This document shows positions 5,428 through 24,582 of a stretch of DNA of 64,000 bases, in pieces; within the stretch, counting starts at the first letter, position 1, and each line of letters starts with the position of its first letter. Made by a program: the position numbers and the translations under genes. The stretch is taken from positions 1 through 64,000 of the IMG/VR virus record IMGVR_UViG_3300021093_003900; one strand, written 5' to 3'. This DNA comes from a virus. A model generated the notes under the pieces. That model made no database searches. It worked only from the letters and a program-made list of their open reading frames with translations, and was not told the DNA's origin.

Positions 5428-6369
5428 TCAACTTTCTCCTTCATAATTGACGTTGACATCTTGTTCAATATCAAGAGTATCGTCCTGATCCACATCTAGC
5501 ATAATTTCTTGCTCTCCGATAGCCATAAGATCATCAATCATACTTACCTTTTTCTCGTCAAGGTCGTATTTTGCATTTATTTCTAGAGTTTTTGCATCAC
5601 ATAATGATTTATTTGATGTTTTTGGTAAATTTCTGATGTGTGTCAAAATGTAAGGAGGAAGTTCAGTCATCATTGAATCAATTTGATGATCCAACACATT
5701 CCAAAATGTTGGTGAACTTTCATCATTTACATCCCAAAAAACAGCCACTTTATAACCTGTAATTTTATTAATACAATAAATTAAAATTCCACGAGAATAG
5801 TATCTAAAAAAATGATGCGGATTATTTTTAGATGTGGTACACCATTTTGTTCCAGACCCATAAGATTTCGAGGATTCAAAAGTCAAAGGTCTTATGACAA
5901 GCCATTCTTCGTCATCAATGAGTTTGATTACTTCTTTACTTGAACTTTTTACAATAAATTTTGCGTGTGCTTTATGATAAACTTCTCTCAATTGGTCTAA
6001 ATCAGAAATGGTATTAAGATCTAAATTTTCAACATAATTTTTCTGGTAAAGATCCATAAAATCCAAAATCAGTTCTTTTTCACAATATTCATTTAAGAAA
6101 TTATTAAAATAGTCAACCAAAAAATTAATTTCATTTAAATTAATTTTTGACTCTCCGAATTTATCTGATATTTTATCAATTCGTAAACTACTGTACACGT
6201 TGTTTTCAAAGAGACTAGGTTGAACTCTTTTTTTTAGTTCACTTATAATACATTTAGTCATCAGTGGAACGAATTTATTTGTATCGGAACTATCCAAAAG
6301 TGTTAAATAATCCAAAAAAGAAAAGTTCAATTGAGGATTTCTTTGTTTTATTTCTGATAATTTTGCCAT
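5428..6369 (-). CDS. conserved phage protein (PcfJ-like motif)
   Basis: WLVIRPLTFESSKSYGSGTKWCTT motif; downstream of the thioesterase in the same orientation. Confidence 0.55.
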   Translation of the reverse strand: MAKLSEIKQRNPQLNFSFLDYLTLLDSSDTNKFVPLMTKCIISELKKRVQPSLFENNVYSSLRIDKISDKFGESKINLNEINFLVDYFNNFLNEYCEKELILDFMDLYQKNYVENLDLNTISDLDQLREVYHKAHAKFIVKSSSKEVIKLIDDEEWLVIRPLTFESSKSYGSGTKWCTTSKNNPHHFFRYYSRGILIYCINKITGYKVAVFWDVNDESSPTFWNVLDHQIDSMMTELPPYILTHIRNLPKTSNKSLCDAKTLEINAKYDLDEKKVSMIDDLMAIGEQEIMLDVDQDDTLDIEQDVNVNYEGES

Positions 6370-6381
6370 TTTGAAATTTTT

Positions 6382-6798
6382 TTATTTTTGAATTATATTG
6401 TTTGTTTCTGAACCAAAACCATATTTAGCTTTTACTCTTTGTGAAATTGGAATTGGATTACCGTCCTCATCAATCCTTACAAAGGTAATGTAGGTTGATA
6501 ATATCGTTGTTTGATTTCCTGTGTATACATTATGAGTCCTTGCTTCGATGTAAAGTTTTAAAGAAGTATTTCCAATCGTATCAACTTTACCATACACTTT
6601 GAGTAAATGACCTTCTCTTGCTGGTTTTTTGAATAAACATTCATCTATTTTAATTGTAACCATACGAGGTGTATCACACACTTGCATAGCCAAAGAAGCT
6701 CCAGCAGAATCCAACCATTTTAGTAATGTTCCACCAAATAGATTTCCGTGAAAACCTAAATCTGATTTTTTTACAGGATGTGTCGATATGAGTTCCAT
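6382..6798 (-). CDS. acyl-CoA thioesterase (hotdog fold, YciA-like)
   Basis: DLGFHGNLFGGTLLKWLD, FKKP, GNTSL, TFVRIDEDGNPIPI motifs. Confidence 0.9.
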   Translation of the reverse strand: MELISTHPVKKSDLGFHGNLFGGTLLKWLDSAGASLAMQVCDTPRMVTIKIDECLFKKPAREGHLLKVYGKVDTIGNTSLKLYIEARTHNVYTGNQTTILSTYITFVRIDEDGNPIPISQRVKAKYGFGSETNNIIQK

Positions 6799-6865: not shown

Positions 6866-7468
6866 TCACTCTTGTTTGGATTTTTTTGCGACTTTTTGAA
6901 GAATTTTTTTGATAAAACTTTGATTTACAGATATAACACTTAACGCAACAATTCTTTTAGCCAAGTCATTTAAATCCTGACTTGAAAATGTCCCAGCATT
7001 TATTTTTAAAATGTAATCTAGTATTGGTAAAAGAAATATGAAAAAAACAATTTCATTTACCATCTTAGCTGATTTTGTTGTATTTGATATGAATGTTCGA
7101 AACAAATTCATCATTTTTTCCGTACTTTTTTTGATCGAATTAAATTCTTTTGTTAAATTTTTTTCTCTGATTAATCTAGAAATTTGACGAATTTCACTGA
7201 CGTTTTGATTATAATAAACAGAACATACTCCGATAATAAGAAGAATTTTTTCGGAGTCAGTTAGATTTGGAAATTCGGAACTTAGAGATGCATTTAGAGG
7301 TCGTACCAATGCACCTATAATGGCTGAGTACGTGAGTAAAAATTTTGTATTTTCTATACCCAAAGTTTTTGCGGTTCTATAAATGGATTTTGTCGCTTTT
7401 TCCAAACCAGAAAAAATTTTCATCAAATCTTCATCAAACCCCTCAGATAAAATTAAATTTTGTGCCAT
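6866..7468 (-). CDS. hypothetical helical membrane-associated protein
   Basis: Start MAQNLILSE at 7468; several hydrophobic segments. Confidence 0.7.
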   Translation of the reverse strand: MAQNLILSEGFDEDLMKIFSGLEKATKSIYRTAKTLGIENTKFLLTYSAIIGALVRPLNASLSSEFPNLTDSEKILLIIGVCSVYYNQNVSEIRQISRLIREKNLTKEFNSIKKSTEKMMNLFRTFISNTTKSAKMVNEIVFFIFLLPILDYILKINAGTFSSQDLNDLAKRIVALSVISVNQSFIKKILQKVAKKSKQE

Positions 7469-7623: not shown

Positions 7624-8472
7624 ATGAGTAAAAAAATTTATTTGACTGAATCTGAACTCAGAAAGTTAATTGGTCGTGTAATTAAAGAACAAAGTATGGG
7701 TGGAATGCTAACTCCACAAGCGTTTGCACAAGCCTCCGTAGAAGCAGGACAACTAATTAAAAAAGGTGTGTCGACTGCCTTTTCCGATGTAAGTAAGAGA
7801 ATTTGGGATTATGTTGCACGTATAAAAAAATTGGCAATTATATTTCCAGATATGACAGATGAAAAGGAAAGAATAGCTGCAAGTTATATGCATAAATATT
7901 TACCAATCTTTGCAAACCAAGCGGGTTGGACTTCATACGTTTTAAATTCTTTAACAGGGTATAATAGATTAATAAGTACATTGAGTAGTAAGGGTGTAAA
8001 ATTAGACCAACTTATAATTGGCTCTCATGGTGACGGGAAACATTTACTTATGACTAATAACGATGGTGTCGCAAACGCTGATTTTTTATCAAGTATTAAA
8101 AATATAATAACAAATCAAACTATCATTTATTTTACAGCTTGTTATGGTGCAGACAGCCTTAGACTATTGTATGACGCTGCTTGCAAAACTAATACTACCG
8201 TATATGCTTCAACTGGTGTCAATTATTTTAGTTTTGGCTCTGAAAAAGGATTTTACTCATGTTCACCAAAACCATTATTACCAGAAGATAGAAAACAATA
8301 CGACGATTGGGACTATGCAAAAAAGGCAAAGGGTGGTGAACGTGCATATAATGAACTTTTATTAAGAGGTGGATACTGTAAACCTGTTTCTAGTCCACCT
8401 CCATGGTTTGTAGTACCGGGAGCTATGGGGGGAATAGTAAAACCTATTGCGAAAGCTTTAGGGTATGAGTAA
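7624..8472 (+). CDS. putative clan-CD-like cysteine peptidase domain protein (DUF4347-like) with N-terminal leader
   Basis: LIIGSHGDG ... IYFTACYGA His/Cys dyad spacing; N-terminal KKIYLTESELRKLIGRVIKEQ. Confidence 0.55.
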   Translation: MSKKIYLTESELRKLIGRVIKEQSMGGMLTPQAFAQASVEAGQLIKKGVSTAFSDVSKRIWDYVARIKKLAIIFPDMTDEKERIAASYMHKYLPIFANQAGWTSYVLNSLTGYNRLISTLSSKGVKLDQLIIGSHGDGKHLLMTNNDGVANADFLSSIKNIITNQTIIYFTACYGADSLRLLYDAACKTNTTVYASTGVNYFSFGSEKGFYSCSPKPLLPEDRKQYDDWDYAKKAKGGERAYNELLLRGGYCKPVSSPPPWFVVPGAMGGIVKPIAKALGYE

Positions 8473-8529
8473 GAATGATGGGTAATTTGAAATAAAGAAA
8501 ATTTAAAGATATTTATTAGAAAAAAAATT

Positions 8530-9330
8530 ATGAACGCATATTTCGTAGGGATCACTCAACAAGAAAAAAATAACATTCTGGATCAACATAAGAAAATTTA
8601 TGATGGGTACAGATTAGTTCAACAAAACAATACTGAACCACAACCTTTGTATGTTCAAGATTTTGCAAACGACAAGGATGGTTTTGTTGTAAATAATAAG
8701 GGTGATGTAAAAAAATATACAAATATGGGTATCAATGAATCTCAAAAAGATTTTGAAACTATTGAGATGGAGGAAGATGATTGTGTTGAATGTGGCATGA
8801 AGGAAACTTACGAAGATATGTATATGGATCAACCTTCGGAGGAAGATTTTCAAGAAATTGGATTTGAATTTGAAAAACCAATAACTATCCGTGGAAATGT
8901 ATACCACAACACAGGTGACCTCGAAAGGGGTGAAAATATAAATTTAGGAAGTATAATGAACACAGAGGATGGTCTTAGATTTATGTCTATGTCAAACAAA
9001 CCAGAAGGATTAACCCTAGATGAGTTAGTAGACCTTTTAAACCCAATGGATATGGGTGATGCTCATGCGTATCGTGATGATATGGATATGCACCCAGAAG
9101 CGGATGAAATAGATTTAGAAGATTTGTATGCGGCATCCGAGTTTTATGATAAGTTAAAATCAGGTGAGGGACAAAAACCAAGTGATCGATTAAATGAACC
9201 GTCGGACGAGAAAGACAACAATTGGATGTTTGTTGAAGATGAGTTTACGGAGAGTGAAGACTTGGATGAATCATTTTACACACAAAGAAACAAAATACTT
9301 GAAATGTTTCAAAGAACGTCTAGGTTTTGA
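8530..9330 (+). CDS. acidic hypothetical phage protein
   Basis: 266-aa ORF, Asp/Glu-rich, preceded by TATTTA. Confidence 0.75.
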   Translation: MNAYFVGITQQEKNNILDQHKKIYDGYRLVQQNNTEPQPLYVQDFANDKDGFVVNNKGDVKKYTNMGINESQKDFETIEMEEDDCVECGMKETYEDMYMDQPSEEDFQEIGFEFEKPITIRGNVYHNTGDLERGENINLGSIMNTEDGLRFMSMSNKPEGLTLDELVDLLNPMDMGDAHAYRDDMDMHPEADEIDLEDLYAASEFYDKLKSGEGQKPSDRLNEPSDEKDNNWMFVEDEFTESEDLDESFYTQRNKILEMFQRTSRF

Positions 9331-9418
9331 GAATTTTCCGTGAGTTTTTTGTAGATCAAATTTAATGGGAAATATTGATTTTTTTAAAAAAATGAGATAT
9401 TTGTAAGAAAAAAAAATT

Positions 9419-9721
9419 ATGGAAATAAGAGAAATTTTGGAAACTAACTTGGTCTCAAATAATTTGGAGGTCAAATTTAGAATAGACGAGGACACCGATG
9501 AAGTCATAAGAACTTACACATTTGATTTGGATGTCATTTTGGAATATGGTTACGACATTTTTCCAGAACCATTGGATATGACCGATATGGATGAAGAGTA
9601 TTTGGATGAGGAATATGAAATGGAAGAATTCGAAACAGAAATCGATGAAAGTGAATTGACATTGTTTATGAATGAATTTTTTTCGATAACTGAAAAACTT
9701 CCTGAAGCCGAAAGTTATTAA
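9419..9721 (+). CDS. acidic hypothetical protein
   Basis: 100-aa ORF with A-rich leader. Confidence 0.75.
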   Translation: MEIREILETNLVSNNLEVKFRIDEDTDEVIRTYTFDLDVILEYGYDIFPEPLDMTDMDEEYLDEEYEMEEFETEIDESELTLFMNEFFSITEKLPEAESY

Positions 9722-9738
9722 TTGAATATTTATAACTT

Positions 9739-9978
9739 ATGAGTGATATTGATATAAATTACTACATAAGAATGTTACGTTCTTTGATAGGTAATAAGGT
9801 TGAATTTGAAGAACAAGATACTGGTGGTACTGCAACTAGCTCAGGCCCACCACCAGCGTACCCAACGGTCACCAAATGGGAAACAGGGATCAAAAGAGGT
9901 TCCGCAAACCAGATAGGTAATACCAAATGGAAAGATTCATATACCATAACAAGAGGTAAAGCGAATACTTTATTATAA
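9739..9978 (+). CDS. small hypothetical protein with duplicated KW-x5/7-RGxAN motif
   Basis: TKWETGIKRGSANQI and TKWKDSYTITRGKANTL. Confidence 0.7.
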   Translation: MSDIDINYYIRMLRSLIGNKVEFEEQDTGGTATSSGPPPAYPTVTKWETGIKRGSANQIGNTKWKDSYTITRGKANTLL

Positions 9979-16500: not shown

Positions 16501-17166
16501 ATGGCATACATTGAACACAATTTTTTTCCACTCAAAGTTTTCCTTAGAAATGAGTACTTATACCAAGGAAAAAAAGGTCATGGAGAATTCACACCCGGAG
16601 TTATTATATCTGTAAGATGTATGCCGGGACAAGCCACATTATTTCAAGTTCTTTTAGAAAATGGAGTTTTAAGAGACAAATTACCAAGTCACGCTCTTTT
16701 GACCGAACCTGAATTACCAAATCCAGATTTACCTTTTCATTATTTACAGATTTGGAATTGTTTTTCTTATAATTTTACTTTAATACATTTGTCATACGTA
16801 TACGATACTCCTGTAGAAGTTTATATGAAAGATAGAAAATTTTATAAAGGAAATTATTACGCTACAATAAATTGGGGTAGTAATGATTTTAATACTGATC
16901 TAACATTATCTGAAGATCCATTGGAGCATAAATCTCATCATATTATTTTACTAGAAAATGGTCAAATAGCTCTACAACCAAACAATCGAATTAAATGGTT
17001 TGAACCTAGTTTTGTTACAAAACCTTTTCCAGAAAAACCAGATTATCTTGTTAATAAAGATTATTATAATTGTGAAGGGTATGAAAAATGGAATACTGAA
17101 GATAGTGAAAGAATGTTTTATGATAATGAATCTGATTTTTCAAAAAAAATAATACAAAATTGTTAA
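16501..17166 (+). CDS. conserved hypothetical phage protein
   Basis: 221-aa ORF; LQIWNCFS, EHKSHH, NGQIALQPNNR motifs typical of a widespread phage family. Confidence 0.75.
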   Translation: MAYIEHNFFPLKVFLRNEYLYQGKKGHGEFTPGVIISVRCMPGQATLFQVLLENGVLRDKLPSHALLTEPELPNPDLPFHYLQIWNCFSYNFTLIHLSYVYDTPVEVYMKDRKFYKGNYYATINWGSNDFNTDLTLSEDPLEHKSHHIILLENGQIALQPNNRIKWFEPSFVTKPFPEKPDYLVNKDYYNCEGYEKWNTEDSERMFYDNESDFSKKIIQNC

Positions 17167-17213
17167 TTTAATTAATAGAACGTGATATTTAATTGTTAAA
17201 TCTATTTGACAAG

Positions 17214-17840
17214 ATGAATTGGATCAATATTATTACAACTCTTATAACCTCAACAACATCAATTATTGTGGCACTTATTGCTGCTGGGTTTTTTAAGAGT
17301 TGGATGGATAAATTTAAAGAAAAAAAATCACAAGGAAAACTTATCAAACAAATTCAAAAAGATGAGGTTGTACATTTTACAATTAGAGAACTAAGAAGAA
17401 AATATAATGCGGATAGAATTTATATTATGCAGTTCCACAATGGTGGTATGTTCTACACACAAGCTCCGATGCAAAAAGTATCGATAACCTTTGAAAGGTG
17501 TTCTGATGGTCTCGAGAGAATGTTCGAAAGATTTCAACACGTATTTGTTTCGCATCACACTTGGTTTATTTCAGAAACAATCAATATGAGTATGTTTTCA
17601 ACAAACCTAGAAGAAGATGTTAGAGATTTACCAACAAGAAGTTTATTGAAAACATTTGGAAACTACGCTCTCAGTTCAGTACCTATCTATGATATAAATA
17701 AAAATTTGATTGGAATACTTTCTTTAGGCTGGGTGTTTTCTGAAATTCCAGATGAAATTCTAGAAAATAATAATTTTACAGAAAAATTCAAAACTGAATT
17801 ATTATCTGAATCAAATTCGTTAGCAACATATTTATTATAA
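17214..17840 (+). CDS. holin-like protein (N-terminal TM + GAF-like domain)
   Basis: TM IITTLITSTTSIIVALIAAGFF; YNADRIYIMQFHNGG and VPIYD..KNLIGIL GAF-like motifs; architecture as in T4 holin T. Confidence 0.5.
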   Translation: MNWINIITTLITSTTSIIVALIAAGFFKSWMDKFKEKKSQGKLIKQIQKDEVVHFTIRELRRKYNADRIYIMQFHNGGMFYTQAPMQKVSITFERCSDGLERMFERFQHVFVSHHTWFISETINMSMFSTNLEEDVRDLPTRSLLKTFGNYALSSVPIYDINKNLIGILSLGWVFSEIPDEILENNNFTEKFKTELLSESNSLATYLL

Positions 17841-18520
17841 TGTCAGCAAAATTATTTAGTACTGATAATGTAAGTCTTGGTGGTGGTCCAGCGGCCCACA
17901 GAAGTAGAGCAGGATATAAGGCGGGTGATTGGTTTAGTGGAAAGGGATACGATTTACATGTAAAACCTGGTACAGAGGTTTATTCACTTACTGATGGTAA
18001 AGTAGTAGCTAATAATTTGGATCCCGATAATTGTAAAAAAGGTGTATATGGACATAGAGTAACTATTTTAGCAGATAATGGTGATGAACTTTATTACACA
18101 CATATCGAAAGTAAATTAACGGTTGGCCAAAAAATTAAAAAAGGAGATCTGATTGGTAAAGTACGAAAAGGTTGTGGTGTTAAACCACATTTACATGTTG
18201 CAAGTAAGAAAAAAGATGTTAAGGACTACGTTGATTTCAAAACTTGGGCTATTATTGGAGGCGCAGCCGCTTTAATAAGTGTAAATAAAAAAGATAATGA
18301 AAAAGATAACGAAACAGATACAGAAGAAGAAAATGGAGGACAAGACCCCGAAAAAAAACAAAAAGATAAAAAAGAACCAGCAACAGACTTACTCCGACAA
18401 AAATATTTTGATGCTGTTAGTATTCCATTCACATTAATTGGGTTGCCGGGTTTAGCTGAAAGCATTCAAGCTAATAGTAATTTAGATAAAGAAATTAGAC
18501 GTATAAAACAATTATTGTAA
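17840..18520 (+). CDS. M23 family metallopeptidase
   Basis: GYDLHVKPGTEVYS, YYTH, VGQKIKKGDLIG, PHLH motifs. Confidence 0.85.
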   Translation: MSAKLFSTDNVSLGGGPAAHRSRAGYKAGDWFSGKGYDLHVKPGTEVYSLTDGKVVANNLDPDNCKKGVYGHRVTILADNGDELYYTHIESKLTVGQKIKKGDLIGKVRKGCGVKPHLHVASKKKDVKDYVDFKTWAIIGGAAALISVNKKDNEKDNETDTEEENGGQDPEKKQKDKKEPATDLLRQKYFDAVSIPFTLIGLPGLAESIQANSNLDKEIRRIKQLL

Positions 18521-18793: not shown

Positions 18794-18888
18794 AAATTAT
18801 TTATTTTTTTTTTAATGTCTATTATATTGGACATTCAATAATTTTTTTGATCAAACAAAATATTTACAACTATACGATATTTATGTTT

Positions 18889-19191
18889 ATGAATGATTTA
18901 AAGAGAATTTTAAGAGAGAATCTTAAGAGACATATAAGAGAGGAATCTGCGAAAAAAAAACCAGAAGTTCATGTCCCTGAAAATTGTTTTGGTGGGCCAA
19001 AGACTTACGCTGGTGGACTTGTAGCTCTTATACAGTTATTAATGAAAGATAATGACAGAGATGCAAAATTAGCTGTTGAAGACTTTAAACAATTCCTGAA
19101 AGGAAGTTCTAAAATTGACGGTAAAGTAGTGGTTCAGATTCTCGAAAAACATGGAAAGAATCAGTACATTTCTTTTGCTGGTTGTTTTTAA
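18889..19191 (+). CDS. hypothetical protein with ILRE-type leader
   Basis: Start MNDLKRILRENLKRHIREE at 18889, 5 nt after TATTTA. Confidence 0.7.
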   Translation: MNDLKRILRENLKRHIREESAKKKPEVHVPENCFGGPKTYAGGLVALIQLLMKDNDRDAKLAVEDFKQFLKGSSKIDGKVVVQILEKHGKNQYISFAGCF

Positions 19192-19213
19192 ACCCATCGA
19201 ATTCGATGGGTTT
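19190..19213. terminator. palindromic bidirectional terminator downstream of tmRNA
   Basis: AAACCCATCGA-AT-TCGATGGGTTT. Confidence 0.75.
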
Positions 19214-19219
19214 GGTTTG

Positions 19220-19620
19220 TGGAGCTAGGTGGATTCGAACCACCGTCCTGTGAATTATTTCACGAGAGGCCTACATGATTATTCGATTATTCATAACCGA
19301 CAAATAGTTGGTTCTCATTTACCATTATTACCAACAACCGTGGGAGTTTCACTTAGATCGGTAGAACCCCTAACTTAACCTCCATTCCTTTTTGGGTAGA
19401 AACCACACCGTAAGGACTTCTGTTGCAAGGTACTTAGTCCGTAACCCCCGGTGATTGTCTCAATTAAGCTACAACCGCGACATCAGACTTCAAGAGTCCG
19501 ATTGTCTCCATACGTGCGAAAACATCGCCATTTGATTGTTTGAACCAGTTTTTACGAGGTTAATTCAGCCCCGTCATGCTCTCTCAGATCCATTGAAACC
19601 AGTCGATTCCTGTTAGCCCC
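19220..19620 (-). ncRNA. ssrA: tmRNA (transfer-messenger RNA)
   Basis: 5' GGGGCTAACAGGAATCGAC; 3' GACGGTGG-TTCGAAT-CCACC-TAGCTCC-A; acceptor stem GGGGCTA/TAGCTCC with the G3.U Ala determinant; helix 2 GAGAGCATG / CATG..CTCTC; internal tag ORF; 401 nt; CCA not fully encoded. Confidence 0.95.
19464..19529 (-). other. tmRNA tag reading frame (A)GDVFARMETIGLLKSDVAVVA*
   Basis: GGC resume codon after A-rich AAACAATCAAAT, open to TAA at 19464; the resume codon is inferred by analogy with Bacteroidota tags. Confidence 0.75.
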
Positions 19621-19646
19621 GAGTGAATATAAATATACTAAAAAAT

Positions 19647-19677
19647 TTTGAAATGTCAAGTTCTTGAACTATATTTG
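19647..19677 (+). promoter_or_regulatory. Bacteroidota-type promoter (TTTG-N19-TATATTTG) for the peptidase, overlapping the divergent tmRNA promoter
   Basis: TTTG 19647-19650, TATATTTG 19670-19677; minus strand has TTG-N19-TATATTTA at 19630-19659. Confidence 0.7.
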
Positions 19678-19684
19678 CTTCATT

Positions 19685-20515
19685 ATGGAATACAGAAATT
19701 ATGACTTGTTGAAAACTATTTTGGCAGTCCCAACTAAAACTTATCAAGAGGACTTGATGATCGAGTTTCTTGACAATTATTTGACTGAACACAATATACC
19801 ACACTACGTGGATGATTATGGGAATGTTTATGCCACCAAAACATCGGAGAGATTTCAAAATCAAGTTTTTCCTTGTGTAATAGCACATACTGATACAGTT
19901 CACAATTTGGTTGATCAAATTATAGTTGAAGAATTTATTGGTAAGGACAGACAACAAAGATCCAAGACTTGTTTAAAAGGTGTAAACTCGAAAGGTAAAC
20001 CAACTGGTATTGGTGGCGACGATAAATGTGGAATTTTTGGAGGACTTACAATATTGATGGATTTACCACATGTAAAGGTGGCATTTTTTGTAAGTGAAGA
20101 AACTGGATGTCACGGTTCAAAAAATAGTGATCCCGAATTTTTCAAGAACGTTGGATATACAATTCAACTTGATGCTCCAGAAAATTATATGATCTCTGAA
20201 GTTTGTAGTGGTGTTCGGTTATTTGATAGAGATTCAGATTTTTTCTTGAAAGTAAATCCGATTATCACCGAAATGATGATTGGCGCTCAGTATATGTACC
20301 ACCCATATACTGACGTTTCTCAAATGGTACTCAAACACGGATTGACCTCAATTAATATTTCTTGTGGTTATTACAATTACCACACCGCAAATGAATACAT
20401 TGTCTTAGATGACCTTTACAATTCAATTGAGGTTGCCAAACGAATGATTGAGTCATTGGGTTATGAAGTTCACCGAATGGAATCAAACAAACGATTACAA
20501 GATTTACGTTGGTGA
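19685..20515 (+). CDS. M28/M42-family zinc peptidase
   Basis: IAHTDTVH, GGDDKCG, SEETGC, QLD and YNYHT..E metal-ligand motifs; start MEYRNY. Confidence 0.85.
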   Translation: MEYRNYDLLKTILAVPTKTYQEDLMIEFLDNYLTEHNIPHYVDDYGNVYATKTSERFQNQVFPCVIAHTDTVHNLVDQIIVEEFIGKDRQQRSKTCLKGVNSKGKPTGIGGDDKCGIFGGLTILMDLPHVKVAFFVSEETGCHGSKNSDPEFFKNVGYTIQLDAPENYMISEVCSGVRLFDRDSDFFLKVNPIITEMMIGAQYMYHPYTDVSQMVLKHGLTSINISCGYYNYHTANEYIVLDDLYNSIEVAKRMIESLGYEVHRMESNKRLQDLRW

Positions 20516-20530
20516 TAATTGATGAAAAAG

Positions 20531-20556
20531 AAAAAGGGGACTTAAGTCCCCTTTTT
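20531..20556. terminator. bidirectional terminator between peptidase and clpC
   Basis: AAAAAGGGGAC-TTAA-GTCCCCTTTTT; the loop contains the clpC stop codon. Confidence 0.85.
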
Positions 20557-22551
20557 TGTTGATATCTTAATCTCTTCATCTTTGTAGGTGAGGTAATAAT
20601 TTTTACCCTCTACAATATCACCCGACAGATATTTTTCGGAGATTACGTCTTCAATTTTTTCTTGAATAGCTCTTTTGATTGGTCGAGCACCATAGGTCTC
20701 ATCAAATCCAACTTCAGCAATATGTTCAACAACTGAATCTTGACAAGTCACATTGATCTTCAATCCTTTGAGACGACTTGTAAGTTTTGCAACTTCAATT
20801 TTAACAATCTCCTTAACCTCTTCTTTTCCGAGGGAATTGAAGACAATAACATCATCAATACGATTGAGAAATTCTGGTTGAAAATATTTTTTCATTTCAG
20901 ATTGAAGGATTGTTTTTTTCTTTTCTTCTTCAGCGTACCTGCTTGTTCTGAAACCGATACCAGTTCCGAAATCTTGAATTTTTTTGATACCAATGTTTGA
21001 TGTCATAATAATCAAACAATTTTTGAAACTAATTTTTCTACCTAGTCCATCCGTGATATGTCCTTCGTCAAGCATTTGAAGAAGTGTATGAAAGATGTCT
21101 TTGTTGGCTTTTTCAATCTCATCGAATAAAACAAGTGAGTATGGTTTAGCTTTTACCTGTTCGGTAAGTTGACCACCCTGATCATAACCAACGTATCCAG
21201 GAGGAGCACCAATCAACCTAGAAACATTATGTTTTTCTTGGTATTCACTCATATCTACACGAATGAGAGCGTCAGGAGATCCAAAAATTTGTTCGGCTAA
21301 TTGTTTTGCCAAATGTGTTTTTCCTGTTCCAGTTCCACCTAAGAAAATGTAACTACCAATCGGTTTATTTGGGTCTTTAAATTTCAAACGGTTTCTACGA
21401 ATTGATTTCGAAATTTTGGTAATCGCTTCGTTTTGTCCAATTACTTTTTTTGACAATTCATTTTCAAGATTGGACAAAGTATTCTTATCATCCAAAGTCA
21501 AACGGTTCAAAGGTATTTTAGTCATATTGGACACAACATCCAAAACCACATCCACATCAATTGGACGTTTGTTCATCAAGAGTTCTTCTTCAAATTTTTT
21601 CTTTTCGATTTCTAGTTTATCCAGAATTTTCTTTTCAGCATCTCTTAAGTCGGCAGCTTTTTCATAGTCTTGTTTTTTGACCACATCCATTTTTTGTTTT
21701 TTAATTTCAGAAGCTTTTGTTTTAAGATTTTCAATAATTGGTGGCGCTTTGATATCAATTTGTGATTTGGAACCAACCTCATCCAGAATATCAAAAGCTT
21801 TGTCTGGGAACTCTCTATCCGTAATATACCTATCTGCCAAGTTCACACAGAGTTCTAATACTTCATCTGAATACGTGACTTTATGAAAATCCTCGTATCT
21901 TGATTTGGATTGCTTGATGATTTGGAGTGTTTCCGTTTTTGATGGTGGATCTACAACAACTTTTTGAAATCTTCTTTCAAGGGCACCATCTTTTTCAATA
22001 TGTTGTCTATATTCATCAAAAGTTGTCGCACCAATACAATGAATTTCACCACGAGATAATGCTGGTTTGAAAATATTTGAAGCATCCATAGCTCCCGACG
22101 AATTCCCAGCACCAACCATAGTGTGGATTTCGTCAATGAAAATAATAACATCAGGATTTTCAACAATCTCTTCAATAATAGCTTTCATTCGTTCCTCAAA
22201 TTGTCCACGATATTTTGTACCAGCAACAATTGAAGTAAGATCTAAATTTACAATTCGTTTATCCCTTAGATTTCTCGGACATTTACCTTCGTGAATTTGA
22301 ATTGCTAACCCTTCCACAATTGAGGTTTTACCAGCACCGGGTTCACCAATGATAATTGCGTTATTTTTTTTTCTACGAGATAAAATTTGAGCAATTCGAG
22401 TAATTTCTACTTCACGACCAACAACTGGATCCAATTTACCTTCAGCGGCTAATTTATTTAAATCCCGACTGAAATTATCCAATACAGGTGTTCCACCACT
22501 TTTTTTACGAACATCTTGTTCTTTTTCGTTCTCATCCATTGATTCTATCAT
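20542..22551 (-). CDS. clpC: ClpC-type AAA+ unfoldase lacking the N-terminal Clp-repeat domain
   Basis: Two AAA modules (GEPGAGKT/IFIDEIH; GGTGTGKT/LFDEIEK), UVR-type middle domain (QDYEKAADLRD), GYVG pore loop, IGF ClpP-docking loop; starts ~20 aa before TPVLDNFSRDL. Confidence 0.92.
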   Translation of the reverse strand: MIESMDENEKEQDVRKKSGGTPVLDNFSRDLNKLAAEGKLDPVVGREVEITRIAQILSRRKKNNAIIIGEPGAGKTSIVEGLAIQIHEGKCPRNLRDKRIVNLDLTSIVAGTKYRGQFEERMKAIIEEIVENPDVIIFIDEIHTMVGAGNSSGAMDASNIFKPALSRGEIHCIGATTFDEYRQHIEKDGALERRFQKVVVDPPSKTETLQIIKQSKSRYEDFHKVTYSDEVLELCVNLADRYITDREFPDKAFDILDEVGSKSQIDIKAPPIIENLKTKASEIKKQKMDVVKKQDYEKAADLRDAEKKILDKLEIEKKKFEEELLMNKRPIDVDVVLDVVSNMTKIPLNRLTLDDKNTLSNLENELSKKVIGQNEAITKISKSIRRNRLKFKDPNKPIGSYIFLGGTGTGKTHLAKQLAEQIFGSPDALIRVDMSEYQEKHNVSRLIGAPPGYVGYDQGGQLTEQVKAKPYSLVLFDEIEKANKDIFHTLLQMLDEGHITDGLGRKISFKNCLIIMTSNIGIKKIQDFGTGIGFRTSRYAEEEKKKTILQSEMKKYFQPEFLNRIDDVIVFNSLGKEEVKEIVKIEVAKLTSRLKGLKINVTCQDSVVEHIAEVGFDETYGARPIKRAIQEKIEDVISEKYLSGDIVEGKNYYLTYKDEEIKISTKKGT

Positions 22552-22710: not shown

Positions 22711-24582
22711 ATGAATAAAAATGTGATTATCGGTATCGACTTAGGTACCACAAACTCGGCGGTAGCAATTATTGAAGGTGGTCAACCTATCGTGGTTGCT
22801 AATTCAGAAGGTAAGAGAACTACACCATCGATTGTTGCTTTTACTGATAAAGATCGAAAGGTTGGTGATCCTGCAAAAAGACAGGCGGTAACCAATCCAG
22901 AAAAGACAGTCTTTTCAATAAAAAGATTTATTGGTAAAGATTTTGATAAATGTAAAGCAGAGTCAAAAAAAGTTCCTTACAAAACAACCAAAACATCAAC
23001 TGGTCTAGTTGGTGTAAAAATTGATGATAAGACATATACACCACAAGAAATTTCAGCAACTATTCTACAGAAAATGAAAAAAACAGCTGAAGATTATTTG
23101 GGTTATGAAGTAACTAGAGCGGTTATTACGGTACCTGCTTATTTCGGTGACCAAGAAAGGAGTGCTACTATTGAGGCTGGTGAAATTGCTGGATTGAAAG
23201 TTGAAAGGATTATTAATGAACCGACAGCTGCAGCATTGGCTTATGGTTTAGATAAAAAATCAAAAGATTCTAAAATATTGGTATTTGACTGTGGTGGTGG
23301 AACTCATGACGTATCGGTACTTGAAATTGGTGATGGGATTTTTGAAGTAAAATCCACTGATGGTGACACACATTTGGGTGGCGACGATTTTGACAACGCA
23401 ATTATCAATTGGATGACATCTGAGTTTCAAAATGAATATGGTATTGATCTTACAAAAGATCCAATGGCCCTCCAAAGAGTTAGAGAAGCCGCTGAAAAAG
23501 CAAAAATTGAATTGTCGTCATCTTCAAACAGTGAAATTAATTTACCTTACATTACTGCTCGTGAAGGTGTTCCTGTTCACTTTGTTAAATCATTACCAAG
23601 AAGTAAATTTGAACAACTGACAAAAGATTTGGTTGACAGAACAATTGCTTGTGCGAAAAAAGCTCTTAAAAACGCTAAATTAAAACCATCCGAAATTGAT
23701 GAGGTTGTTTTAGTTGGTGGATCTACTCGTATTCCAGCAATCCAAGAAGCGGTTGAGAACTTCATTGGTAAAAAAGCAAATAAATCAGTTAATCCTGATG
23801 AAGTTGTGGCTTTGGGAGCTGCTATACAAGGTGCGGTTCTTACTGGTGATGTAGATGATGTACTACTTTTAGATGTTATTCCATTGTCATTCGGTATCGA
23901 AACTATGGGTGGTGTGATGACAAAAATTATTGAAGCTAATACAACCATTCCAATCAAAAAACAACAAACATTCTCAACCGCTGTTGATAATCAACCAACT
24001 GTGGATATTAATGTACTACAAGGTGAAAGACCAATGGCAAATGATAACAGATCTTTGGGTAGATTTTTCTTGGAAGGTATTACACCAGCACCACGAGGTG
24101 TACCACAAATTGAAGTTACAATTGATATCGATGCAAATGGAATTCTTCATGTCACCGCAAAAGACCAAGCGTCTGGTAAGGAAAATAAAATCAGAATTGA
24201 AGGTGGTTCTTCACTAAAACCAGAAGAAATCGAAAGAATGAAACGTGAAGCTCAAGAAAATTTGGAACAAGATAAATTGGCACAACAAAGAGTTGAATTG
24301 TTCAATCAATGTGATAATCAAATTTTCAACACGAAAAAAAATATGGAAGAGTGGAAAGATAAGTTTACTGAAGAACAATCTACGAAGTTAAATGAATGTT
24401 TGGAAAATTTAGAGAAAGCTTATTCTGAACGAAATGAAGAAAATTGTAAAGAACATTCGGAAAAACTTAATAAAGTCTTTATTGAAGTTTCGAACGAAAT
24501 ATACTCAACAATGAAACCAGAAGACGACATGAATACTACAAATGATATTCAAGACGTTGAATTCACAGAAGTAGAAAAGTAA
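22711..24582 (+). CDS. dnaK: molecular chaperone DnaK (Hsp70)
   Basis: [54 protein letters not shown] linker, C-terminal DVEFTEV. Confidence 0.98.

What the first reader, a model, noticed from the sequence alone, without database searches (positions are those of the whole stretch)
19464..19529. tmRNA tag is long and lacks the canonical (Y/F)ALAA end: (A)GDVFARMETIGLLKSDVAVVA
Seen: a 21-codon frame ending VAVVA-stop. Established: most bacterial tags are about 10 residues ending in ALAA, which ClpX reads; Bacteroidota tags resume at Gly (GE..YALAA type). The phage keeps the Gly resume context but doubles the length and swaps the degron. Inference: rescued proteins may escape host ClpXP, or go to a different protease, which would uncouple ribosome rescue from host degradation. 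The 3' end reads ...CCA-CAA (the last two stem C's plus discriminator A, then CAA), so the CCA tail must be completed enzymatically.
Basis: partly seen in the sequence, partly recalled or inferred. Interest (0 to 1): 0.75.

Follow-up and report, generated by a model that had tools for sequence, protein, structure and literature searches.

The report
Phage tmRNA with private 21-residue tag
A giant phage carries its own ribosome-rescue RNA that adds a 21-residue tail, twice as long as bacterial tags of its likely host phylum and with a different end. Dozens of related phages keep this tail next to a phage Clp unfolding motor, so it may be a virus-owned "destroy me" label, which is untested.

Summary
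Rfam finds a complete one-piece tmRNA on the minus strand (19217-19620, 85.5 bits). Its only plausible tag frame (19529-19464) reads GDVFARMETIGLLKSDVAVVA-stop. The frame rests on comparison instead: A at -4 in 37/37 relatives, no internal stop in frame 0, and stops in the other two frames.

The tag is a family trait. At least 581 IMG/VR stretches encode relatives of the neighbouring N-domain-less ClpC. In 47 of 51 loci with enough flank, a tmRNA lies downstream on the same strand, with an M20-like peptidase between them. I read 34 distinct tags of 21-22 residues. They end mostly in [VT]-V-A and never in LAA. All 50 sampled bacterial tmRNAs of GTDB Bacteroidota encode 8-10 residues ending in LAA or MAA.

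A complete 309-kb relative also encodes ClpP and SmpB. A phage-owned tag-and-degrade route is therefore plausible but unproven. The missing CCA is ordinary: 39 of 50 bacterial genes lack it too.

Long non-ALAA phage tags have a precedent in mycobacteriophage Bxz1 (25 residues). This scan has already met this family on other DNA. Verdict: a real new variant of a known kind, of moderate to high interest.

The parts
19217..19620 (-). Complete one-piece tmRNA (ssrA) gene, 404 nt
   Evidence: Rfam RF00023, 85.5 bits, E 9.4e-32, model 1-374. The same gene scores 90-100 bits in 7 closely related viral contigs.
19602..19620 (-). 5' acceptor strand (GGGGCTA) and D-loop analogue (GGAATCGAC) of the tRNA-like domain
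   Evidence: Read directly. Invariant in the window clade. The same motif occurs in Saprospiraceae and Lewinellaceae tmRNAs.
19541..19577 (-). Pseudoknot 1 region upstream of the tag (approximate limits)
   Evidence: Aligned to the Rfam PK1 columns with high posterior probability. The stems TGAATTA/TGGTTCA and CGGGG/CCTCG were read by eye.
19530..19535 (-). Resume context TCAAAT, with A at -4 and a pyrimidine at -5
   Evidence: -4 is A in 37/37 and -5 is C or T in 37/37 related phage tmRNAs. This matches the A86 'ruler' four nucleotides before the E. coli resume codon (PMC2481249).
19464..19529 (-). Tag reading frame: 21 codons (GGC...GCT) plus TAA
   Evidence: Translation. In-frame conservation in relatives. 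Frame 0 has no internal stop in 26/26 distinct ORFs; frames 1 and 2 have stops in 25/26.
19453..19476 (-). Helix 5 hairpin (GGTTGT/ACAATC) with the last tag codon and TAA in its loop
   Evidence: Read. Aligned to the Rfam helix that holds the stop codon.
19217..19248 (-). 3' part of the tRNA-like domain: GGAC, T-arm GGTGG-TTCGAAT-CCACC, acceptor strand TAGCTCC, discriminator A, then CAA
   Evidence: In each of the 17 related phage tmRNAs whose T-arm and acceptor the script could locate (a search that itself required at least 6 of 7 pairs), all 7 acceptor pairs form and G3:U70 is present. These 17 have 6 distinct acceptor stems and 10 distinct T stems, all complementary.
19632..19659 (-). Promoter-like site TTGACA-16 nt-TATATT, ending 12 nt before the mature 5' end
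   Evidence: 11 of 12 consensus matches. This is a consensus match only.
19190..19213 (.). Perfect 10-bp hairpin 4 nt after the tmRNA 3' end, shared with the convergent ORF 18847-19191
   Evidence: -16.3 kcal/mol, z = -7.3 against shuffles. There is no U-run on the tmRNA strand, so it may act as a processing or stability element or as a bidirectional terminator.
19664..20515 (+). M20/M42-like metallopeptidase (283 aa), between the tmRNA and ClpC
   Evidence: Pfam PF01546 and PF05343, near their cut-offs. A homologue lies next to ClpC in 78 of 80 related loci.
20542..22551 (-). ClpC-type double-ring AAA+ unfoldase without the N-terminal domain, with a GIGF (ClpP-docking type) loop
   Evidence: Best solved relatives are S. 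aureus and B. subtilis ClpC, aligned from their residue ~154 to ~803, E 1e-212. Pfam finds AAA, AAA_lid_9, AAA_2 and ClpB_D2-small. The IGF loop is kept in a 39%-identical sister-clade copy.
22711..24582 (+). DnaK (Hsp70), divergent from clpC
   Evidence: PF00012, 821 bits; NCBIfam DnaK above cut-off. It lies next to ClpC only in the window clade and 3 of 80 other loci, so it is not a core part of the block.

Best explanation
SHOWN. This is an intact, phage-borne, one-piece tmRNA with its own promoter-like site. It has an alanine-identity acceptor stem (G3:U70), pseudoknot 1, a canonical resume context and a stop codon in the helix-5 loop. Translation should resume at GGC (19529) and add Ala plus 21 residues ending Val-Val-Ala. 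The tag belongs to a phage-only family of 21-22 residues: G-[NDE]-[VT]-[LFI]-x-[KN]-[ML]-x-x-[LIV]-G-L-...-[VT]-V-A. The family is conserved as a peptide, because invariant positions use several codons. It is genetically linked to an N-domain-less ClpC and an M20-like peptidase.

INFERRED. The RNA works like bacterial SsrA: it is charged by host AlaRS, delivered by SmpB (host or phage) and frees stalled ribosomes. Its tail is a C-terminal degron tuned away from the host Ala-Ala-COOH signal read by ClpX. It would be read mainly by the phage's own ClpC, which feeds ClpP (phage-encoded in relatives) through its IGF loop. The peptidase would then trim the products. The result would be a virus-controlled tag-and-recycle route during infection.
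For: Gene and frame: and PMC2481249. Tag conservation: the window clade has 4 variable codons, with the mainly conservative exchanges R/N, T/A, S/T and D/E, and the frame is kept. Across the family I read 47 tmRNAs with 34 distinct peptides; the last residue is Ala in 32/34, the penultimate is Val in 26/34, and LAA occurs in 0/34. Invariant G11 and L12 use 2 and 4 codons. Phage-only: 50/50 sampled bacterial tags of GTDB Bacteroidota have 8-10 residues ending LAA or MAA. Nine further bacterial tmRNAs sharing the 5' motif (Saprospiraceae, Lewinellaceae and other MAGs) include eight readable tags, all of 9-10 residues. Linkage: at least 581 viral stretches encode relatives of the N-less ClpC, and 47/51 loci with at least 5 kb of flank have a tmRNA downstream on the same strand. 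The ClpC has both AAA+ rings and an IGF loop. Relatives' records: ClpP in 4/5. The complete 309-kb genome has ClpC, tmRNA, ClpP and SmpB, and the catalytic Ser/His/Asp motifs are visible in the G171 ClpP. Independent linkage in the sister clade: ClpP lies 454 nt from the tmRNA in G001 and 5-9 kb away in three others, and an N-less Clp ATPase is adjacent in L029/L048/L080. Among 78 other viral loci carrying a tmRNA-type 3'-end motif, including those with short canonical tags, ClpC matched only those three. For E. coli ClpX, the terminal Ala-Ala-COOH is the main determinant, and changing either Ala raises KM (PMC7652416).
Against: No experiment exists, and which protease reads the tag is pure inference from gene neighbourhood. 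The window's own record (115 kb, CheckV 38%) has neither ClpP nor SmpB. A sister phage (G001, 88% complete) keeps a long tag without any ClpC. A huge phage with a 57%-identical ClpC has no tmRNA. ClpC, DnaK and the peptidase could simply form a general proteostasis cluster. A hydrophobic Ala-terminated end may still be read by host ClpXP, Lon, FtsH or Tsp; LVA-type variants of the E. coli tag are in common use as degradation tags (PMC9382460). Each tag ORF can also fold into a local hairpin, so part of the conservation may act at RNA level.
Confidence: 0.5

Rival explanations
1. Ordinary rescue with a generic degron. The phage tmRNA only boosts ribosome-rescue capacity. Its tail is a hydrophobic, Ala-terminated C-terminus that host proteases (ClpXP, Lon, FtsH, Tsp) degrade much like the host tag. 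ClpC, the peptidase and DnaK are neighbours because they are co-expressed proteostasis genes, not because ClpC reads the tag.
For: The tag keeps the general character of ssrA tags: acidic or polar in the middle, a nonpolar end, and a terminal Ala in 32/34. The sister clade keeps ALAA with equal length. G001 has a long tag and no ClpC. LVA-type ends are in use as variants of the E. coli tag.
Against: The family never uses LAA (0/34) and prefers Val at the penultimate position, where E. coli ClpX prefers Ala. A 21-residue peptide with invariant Gly-Leu and a conserved N-terminal half is more constraint than a generic degron needs. Linkage between tmRNA and Clp genes recurs in three different gene arrangements.
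Confidence: 0.3
2. The extra length serves the RNA, or the tag is not a degron. The inserted codons form an extra hairpin in the mRNA-like domain, for stability, nuclease resistance or protein binding. Alternatively, the tail spares rescued proteins from degradation or marks them for another fate. On either reading the peptide sequence is partly a by-product.
For: Each tag ORF folds into a local hairpin around the Gly11-Leu12 codons (and sequences). In the sister clade, third-position changes on both arms keep one pair (CAGGA/TTCTG against CTGGA/TTCAG).
Against: RNAalifold finds no common structure across 28 family ORFs, and the register of the hairpins differs between members. Unpaired positions are also conserved as amino acids through several codons. 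Tags ending in small nonpolar residues are the hallmark of degradation tags.
Confidence: 0.12
3. The gene is a decaying or captured host gene, or the tag frame is wrong.
For: ARAGORN does not call the gene. Rfam posterior probabilities are low in the pseudoknot 2-4 region.
Against: There is a full-length Rfam match. The tRNA-like domain is intact, with compensatory changes across relatives. The resume context is invariant and only one frame is open. The gene is conserved in dozens of contigs and lies internally in large viral contigs.
Confidence: 0.03

Closest known systems
Bacterial one-piece tmRNA (SsrA, Rfam RF00023) of Bacteroidota, for example the Saprospiraceae MAG tmRNA in L178 with tag GESNYALAA
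   Same: The overall architecture matches: a tRNA-like domain with G3:U70, the GGAATCGAC 5' motif, a pseudoknot 1 of similar layout, the same TCAAAT|GGCGA resume context, a Gly resume codon, a stop codon in the helix-5 loop, and often no encoded CCA.
   Different: The tag has 21 residues instead of 8-10 and ends V-V-A instead of L-A-A or M-A-A. The gene sits in a phage next to a phage ClpC. No close bacterial relative was found by sequence.
Known phage tmRNAs: mycobacteriophage Bxz1 group and Bacillus phage G (tmRNA Website, PMC4131195); tmRNA and SmpB in huge phages (PMC7162821); two-piece tmRNA of marine myophages (PMC9004378)
   Same: These are phage-borne ssrA genes. Bxz1 encodes a 25-residue tag ending A-L-V, and phage G a 13-residue tag ending Q-V-A, so long, non-ALAA phage tags are already on record. 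SmpB is reported in huge phages.
   Different: The hosts, RNA lineage and tag sequences are unrelated, and blastn finds no match in 50,697 GenBank phage records. Those surveys relied on ARAGORN, which misses most of this family (it called tmRNAs in at most 10 of the 80 ClpC loci, against 44 by nhmmer). None of the papers read describes a conserved tmRNA-ClpC-peptidase block.
Mollicutes ssrA tags read by Lon (the Mesoplasma florum tag and mf-Lon)
   Same: This is a natural case where a longer tag with a non-LAA end goes with a change of protease (PMC9382460). It is the best precedent for how this system may work.
   Different: Here the candidate reader is a virus-encoded ClpC-ClpP inside a host that presumably keeps ClpXP. 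The sequences are unrelated.
Bipartite E. coli and Caulobacter ssrA tags (an SspB site plus the ClpX site)
   Same: Different parts of one tag are read by different partners, and longer spacing can aid delivery (PMC9382460, DAS+4 tag). The conserved N-terminal half of the phage tag could be such a second site.
   Different: No SspB-like adaptor was identified here, and the phage ClpC lacks the N-domain that docks adaptors.

Membership tests
tmRNA / SsrA (Rfam RF00023) | Covariance-model score above the curated gathering score over the full model | tested here: met
   85.5 bits against a cut-off of 47, model 1-374, E 9.4e-32.
tmRNA / SsrA (Rfam RF00023) | tRNA-like domain: 7-bp acceptor stem with the G3:U70 alanine identity pair, a T-arm and discriminator A | tested here: met
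   GGGGCTA/TAGCTCC with G3:U70, T-arm GGTGG-TTCGAAT-CCACC, discriminator A. Compensatory changes occur across the relatives whose domain the script could locate.
tmRNA / SsrA (Rfam RF00023) | Pseudoknot 1 followed by a single-stranded resume context with A four nucleotides before the resume codon | tested here: met
   PK1 columns align with high posterior probability. A at -4 in 37/37 relatives. The rule comes from PMC2481249.
tmRNA / SsrA (Rfam RF00023) | A short open frame ending at a stop codon in the helix-5 loop and encoding a tag with a nonpolar C-terminus | tested here: met
   The 21 codons end in V-A-V-V-A, and TAA lies in the loop of GGTTGT/ACAATC. The frame is conserved.
tmRNA / SsrA (Rfam RF00023) | A partner SmpB is available | tested here: inconclusive
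   There is no SmpB in the 115-kb record, which is 38% complete. SmpB is present in the complete 309-kb relative G167. Host SmpB could also serve.
tmRNA / SsrA (Rfam RF00023) | Aminoacylation with Ala and tagging of stalled chains in vivo | not testable with these tools
   This needs biochemistry or proteomics.
Canonical ClpX-type ssrA degron (...[YF]-A-L-A-A-COOH) | Terminal Ala-Ala-COOH preceded by Leu | tested here: not met
   The window tag ends V-V-A. In the family LAA occurs in 0/34 and the penultimate residue is Ala in only 4/34. The ClpX determinant is described in PMC7652416.
ClpC (class I Clp/Hsp100 unfoldase that docks on ClpP), for the neighbouring gene 20542-22551 | Two AAA+ modules, a short UVR-type middle domain and an IGF-type ClpP-docking loop | tested here: met
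   One continuous alignment to S. aureus and B. subtilis ClpC residues ~154-803. The GIGF loop lies at the position of the ClpC loop. Pfam domains are listed.
ClpC (class I Clp/Hsp100 unfoldase that docks on ClpP), for the neighbouring gene 20542-22551 | N-terminal Clp repeat domain (the dock for adaptors and phospho-arginine) | tested here: not met
   The alignment starts at ClpC residue ~154, and only ~20 residues precede the first AAA+ module. The 80 best viral relatives match from query residue 1-29 onward, which fits the same short N-terminus.
Mollicutes-type Lon-directed long ssrA tag | A long tag ending in a (N)YAFA-type motif, in a cell without ClpXP | tested here: not met
   The tag end is V-V-A and shows no sequence resemblance. 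The protease content of the host is unknown (for the definition).

The most novel reading that the evidence does not exclude
A large family of uncultured jumbo phages runs a private trans-translation and proteolysis pathway. It comprises their own tmRNA, their own SmpB in at least one complete genome, an adaptor-independent N-less ClpC, ClpP and an aminopeptidase. These are tied together by an orthogonal 21-residue degron ending [VT]-V-A. The phage ClpC would read this degron directly, while host ClpX reads it poorly. This would let the virus decide what happens to every chain released from a stalled ribosome, for example recycling host nascent chains into amino acids.
Probability: 0.4. Interest if true: 0.8.

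Novelty: new variant of a known kind. Interest (0 to 1): 0.62.

Why it matters
tmRNA tags are usually treated as short, near-universal ClpX degrons. Here a virus lineage has fixed a different, longer tag and keeps it beside its own unfoldase, with ClpP and SmpB elsewhere in related genomes. If the tag is read by the phage ClpC, this would be a natural orthogonal degron-protease pair. It would also be a second natural case, after Mollicutes and Lon, of a tag co-evolving with a new protease, this time inside a virus. It would show that phages take over protein quality control as well as translation. A practical point follows: ARAGORN-based surveys of phage tmRNAs miss or mis-tag this family, so phage tmRNA counts and tag catalogues are biased.

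Tried and rejected
- ARAGORN on the window, the whole record and the excised region finds nothing at default, -ps95 or -ps90, and gives spurious short "tmRNAs" at -ps80 to -ps50. For the L009 group it finds the gene but picks a non-conserved frame at nt 233-319, which indels in relatives rule out.
- blastn of the tmRNA against GenBank phages finds no match.
- The genome-contig scan with the 5' motif was too loose: 120 rows, mostly chance hits in GC-rich genomes. Only nine are real tmRNAs, eight of them from Bacteroidota MAGs.
- A DNA search of five Bacteroidota genomes with the tmRNA found nothing. blastn against all collected tmRNAs shows no close bacterial donor.
- My strict regular expression for tmRNA ends missed the ClpC-linked tmRNAs. 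An nhmmer profile and then Rfam recovered them.
- RNAalifold on 28 tag ORFs gives no consensus hairpin.
- The huge phage LR745206.1 (ClpC 57% identical) has no tmRNA above cut-off.
- ORF 16501-17166 occupies the place that ClpP holds upstream of the orf215 homologue in G171, but it shows no similarity to ClpP.
- I considered a downstream resume codon that would give a short tag. I rejected it because the spacing from PK1, the A at -4 and the conserved N-terminal half of the peptide all point to GGC at 19529.

Full report
**Observation**

Rfam's tmRNA model (RF00023) matches the minus strand at 19217-19620 over its whole length (85.5 bits, E 9.4e-32). This is the only hit above gathering score in the 64-kb window. 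The window is the first 64 kb of a 115-kb IMG/VR virus record. The record is linear, with a CheckV completeness of 38%, which implies a genome of about 300 kb. GC content is about 0.31.

Read on the minus strand, positions 19529-19464 are GGC GAT ... GCT TAA. The confirmation therefore rests on Infernal and on comparison with relatives.

**Is this the real tag frame?**

- Infernal aligns the consensus resume codon to the GGC.
- The GGC lies 11 nt after pseudoknot 1 and is preceded by TCAAAT.
- In 37 related phage tmRNAs, the base at -4 is always A and the base at -5 is always a pyrimidine. This is the U85-A86 determinant that sets the frame four nucleotides downstream in E. coli (PMC2481249).
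- Across 26 distinct 21-codon ORFs of the family, frame 0 never has an internal stop. Frames 1 and 2 have one in 25 of 26.
- In the window's own tmRNA, no other frame gives a nonpolar, Ala-terminated peptide.
- The stop codon lies in the loop of a GGTTGT/ACAATC hairpin, the usual helix 5.

**Is the RNA intact?**

The acceptor stem GGGGCTA/TAGCTCC has G3:U70, followed by discriminator A. The T-arm is GGTGG-TTCGAAT-CCACC. A script located this domain in 17 of 43 related phage tmRNAs (the search itself required at least 6 of 7 acceptor pairs). In all 17, all seven acceptor pairs form and G3:U70 is present. They show 6 different acceptor stems and 10 different T stems, all complementary, which points to selection on the structure.

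A TTGACA-16-TATATT site ends 12 nt before the 5' end. A perfect 10-bp hairpin follows the 3' end (z = -7.3). The 3' end reads A-CAA, so CCA is not encoded. This is ordinary: only 11 of 50 bacterial tmRNA genes of GTDB Bacteroidota, and 7 of 17 phage ones, encode CCA.

**The tag is a family trait**

Eight viral contigs share the gene at high identity. Their tags differ only by R/N, T/A, S/T and D/E at four codons. They also share the gene order orf114, tmRNA, M20-like peptidase, ClpC, DnaK.

I then searched IMG/VR with an alignment of the neighbouring ClpC. At least 581 viral stretches encode a relative, and the best 80 (64-73% identity) are matched from their first residues, which fits the same short N-terminus.

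- In those 80 loci, an nhmmer profile and then Rfam find a tmRNA on the ClpC strand, 2-6 kb downstream, in 47 of the 51 loci with at least 5 kb of flank.
- The M20-like peptidase lies next to ClpC in 78 of 80.
- ARAGORN called tmRNAs in at most 10 of the 80 loci.
- From 47 tmRNAs I read 34 distinct tags, 29 of 21 residues and 5 of 22.
- In the subset analysed column by column (26 distinct 21-codon ORFs), Gly1, Gly11 and Leu12 are invariant, and the last two use 2 and 4 codons.
- Across all 34 distinct tags, the last residue is Ala in 32, the penultimate is Val in 26 (Ala in 4), and the antepenultimate is never Leu. LAA does not occur.

**Controls**

All 151 sampled genomes of GTDB Bacteroidota have a tmRNA. 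The 50 tags I read have 8-10 residues and end in LAA or MAA. Nine more bacterial tmRNAs share the phage's GGAATCGAC 5' motif. They come from Saprospiraceae, Lewinellaceae and other MAGs, one of them not from Bacteroidota, and the eight tags I could read have 9-10 residues. One of them has almost the same PK1 layout and resume context as the window. The extended tag was therefore seen only in phages.

**Sister clades**

A second group of large viral contigs (91-230 kb; the tmRNA is internal in most of them) has 23-residue tags. These begin GENPF and end EVALAA, with one ending EVALVA. About half of their differing codons are synonymous. A third group has 36-40-residue tags ending YAYAA or similar, again with many synonymous changes and in-frame indels. 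Greater length and the changed end are thus separate traits. The window's family has both.

**Context**

The ClpC (20542-22551) aligns in one piece to S. aureus and B. subtilis ClpC from residue ~154 to ~803. It lacks the N-domain and has a GIGF loop where ClpP-docking loops sit.

- The window's record has neither ClpP nor SmpB, but 62% of the genome is unseen.
- Among five larger records of the family, four encode a full-length ClpP (E 1e-51 to 1e-59). The catalytic motifs are visible in the G171 copy.
- The one complete genome (309 kb) has ClpC, tmRNA, ClpP and SmpB.
- In the sister clade the linkage recurs in other arrangements. ClpP lies 454 nt from the tmRNA in G001 and 5-9 kb away in three records. 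A 39%-identical N-less Clp ATPase with an IGF loop lies divergent and adjacent in L029/L048/L080.
- Among 78 other viral loci carrying a tmRNA-type 3'-end motif, including those with short canonical tags, ClpC matched only those three.
- Against the linkage: G001 has no ClpC, and a huge phage with a related ClpC has no tmRNA.

**Mechanism**

Shown: the gene, the frame, conservation of the peptide, its restriction to phages in my samples, and the linkage to Clp genes.

Inferred: the RNA rescues ribosomes as SsrA does. The tail is a degron whose end departs from the Ala-Ala-COOH that E. coli ClpX needs most (PMC7652416). Its preferred reader is the phage ClpC, which feeds ClpP, with the peptidase finishing the products. 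I put this at about 0.5.

The main rival, at 0.3, is a generic nonpolar degron still handled by host proteases. A role for the extra codons at RNA level has weak support (0.12). Local hairpins exist in each ORF, and one pair covaries in the sister clade, but there is no common register across the family.

**Novelty**

Phage tmRNAs are known (PMC4131195, PMC7162821, PMC9004378). Long, non-ALAA phage tags have a precedent: I re-derived the 25-residue tag of Bxz1 and the 13-residue tag of Bacillus phage G. The switch of Mollicutes tags to Lon is the closest functional precedent.

I found no paper describing this tag family or a tmRNA-ClpC-peptidase block. The tmRNA has no blastn match among the GenBank phage records, and their best ClpC matches reach only 57% identity.

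This scan has already reported the same family on other DNA (e1-5341987, e1-5407623, e1-5742794, e1-5678341 and others). My results were obtained independently and agree with those notes. I add ClpP and SmpB in the complete relative, the ClpP linkage in the ALAA clade, and the statistics on tag ends.

**Caveats**

- The host is not established.
- Most records are fragments.
- The bacterial tag sample (50 of 151 genomes) was not random.
- Neighbourhood evidence cannot show which protease reads the tag.

Noticed in passing
window 19217-19620; loci L009, L012, L014, L015, L273-L352: ARAGORN 1.2.41 is blind to this tmRNA family. It makes no call in the window, picks a wrong tag frame (nt 233-319) in the L009 group, and called tmRNAs in at most 10 of the 80 ClpC loci, against 44 by nhmmer. 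Phage tmRNA surveys that rely on ARAGORN will undercount the family and mis-tag it.
   Followed up: yes
L008, L029, L039, L042, L050, L092 (records G001-G006): A sister clade of jumbo-phage tmRNAs has 23-residue tags that begin GENPF and end EVALAA (one ends EVALVA). It shares the AAAT|GGCGA resume context with the window. About half of the differing codons are synonymous.
   Followed up: partly
L027, L060, L065, L066, L070, L074, L075: A third viral tmRNA clade has very long tags (36-40 residues) with a conserved Trp-His-containing core and ends such as YAYAA. Many changes are synonymous and the indels are in frame. No ClpC lies within 5 kb in these loci.
   Followed up: partly
L265 (G001:170908-181347), ORFs 5476-5868, 5882-6556, 7064-7348, 8402-9907: In G001 the tmRNA lies beside a small AAA_33 kinase-like ORF and a true ClpP. 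A thioredoxin and a RimK-like ATP-grasp ligase follow; the latter belongs to a family that adds residues to a protein C-terminus.
   Followed up: partly
L362 6535-6940 (LR745206.1) and L308 12944-13351: GOLLD RNAs (RF02032, 287 and 306 bits) lie a few kb from the ClpC homologue, in a 635-kb uncultured phage and in one IMG/VR relative.
   Followed up: no
L339 10753-10969; L340 13419-13645: Group I introns (RF00028, 72 and 101 bits) lie downstream of ClpC in two of the four loci where no tmRNA was found. The tmRNA may lie beyond the fetched flank.
   Followed up: no
L353 1303-2747 against window 16501-17840: In relative G171 the phage ClpP lies directly upstream of a homologue of window ORF 17193-17840. 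In the window that slot holds ORF 16501-17166, which has no Pfam match and no similarity to ClpP.
   Followed up: partly
window 19476-19505 (tag codons 9-17) and the same region in relatives: Each tag ORF can form a local hairpin whose loop covers the invariant Gly-Leu codons. One pair covaries through third-position changes in the sister clade, but the register differs across the window's family and RNAalifold finds no consensus.
   Followed up: partly
L062, L082, L020, L022, L036, L058, L085: Other viral contigs carry one-piece or permuted tmRNAs for which ARAGORN calls tags of 15-25 residues with varied ends (ELAA, ATV, VAC, KAA and others). Long tags seem common among phage tmRNAs in general.
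   Followed up: no
window 17840-18520: An M23 peptidase-domain protein (PF01551, E 1e-14) is encoded 0.7 kb beyond the tmRNA's 3' end. It is only 42-46% identical in two otherwise close relatives.
   Followed up: no
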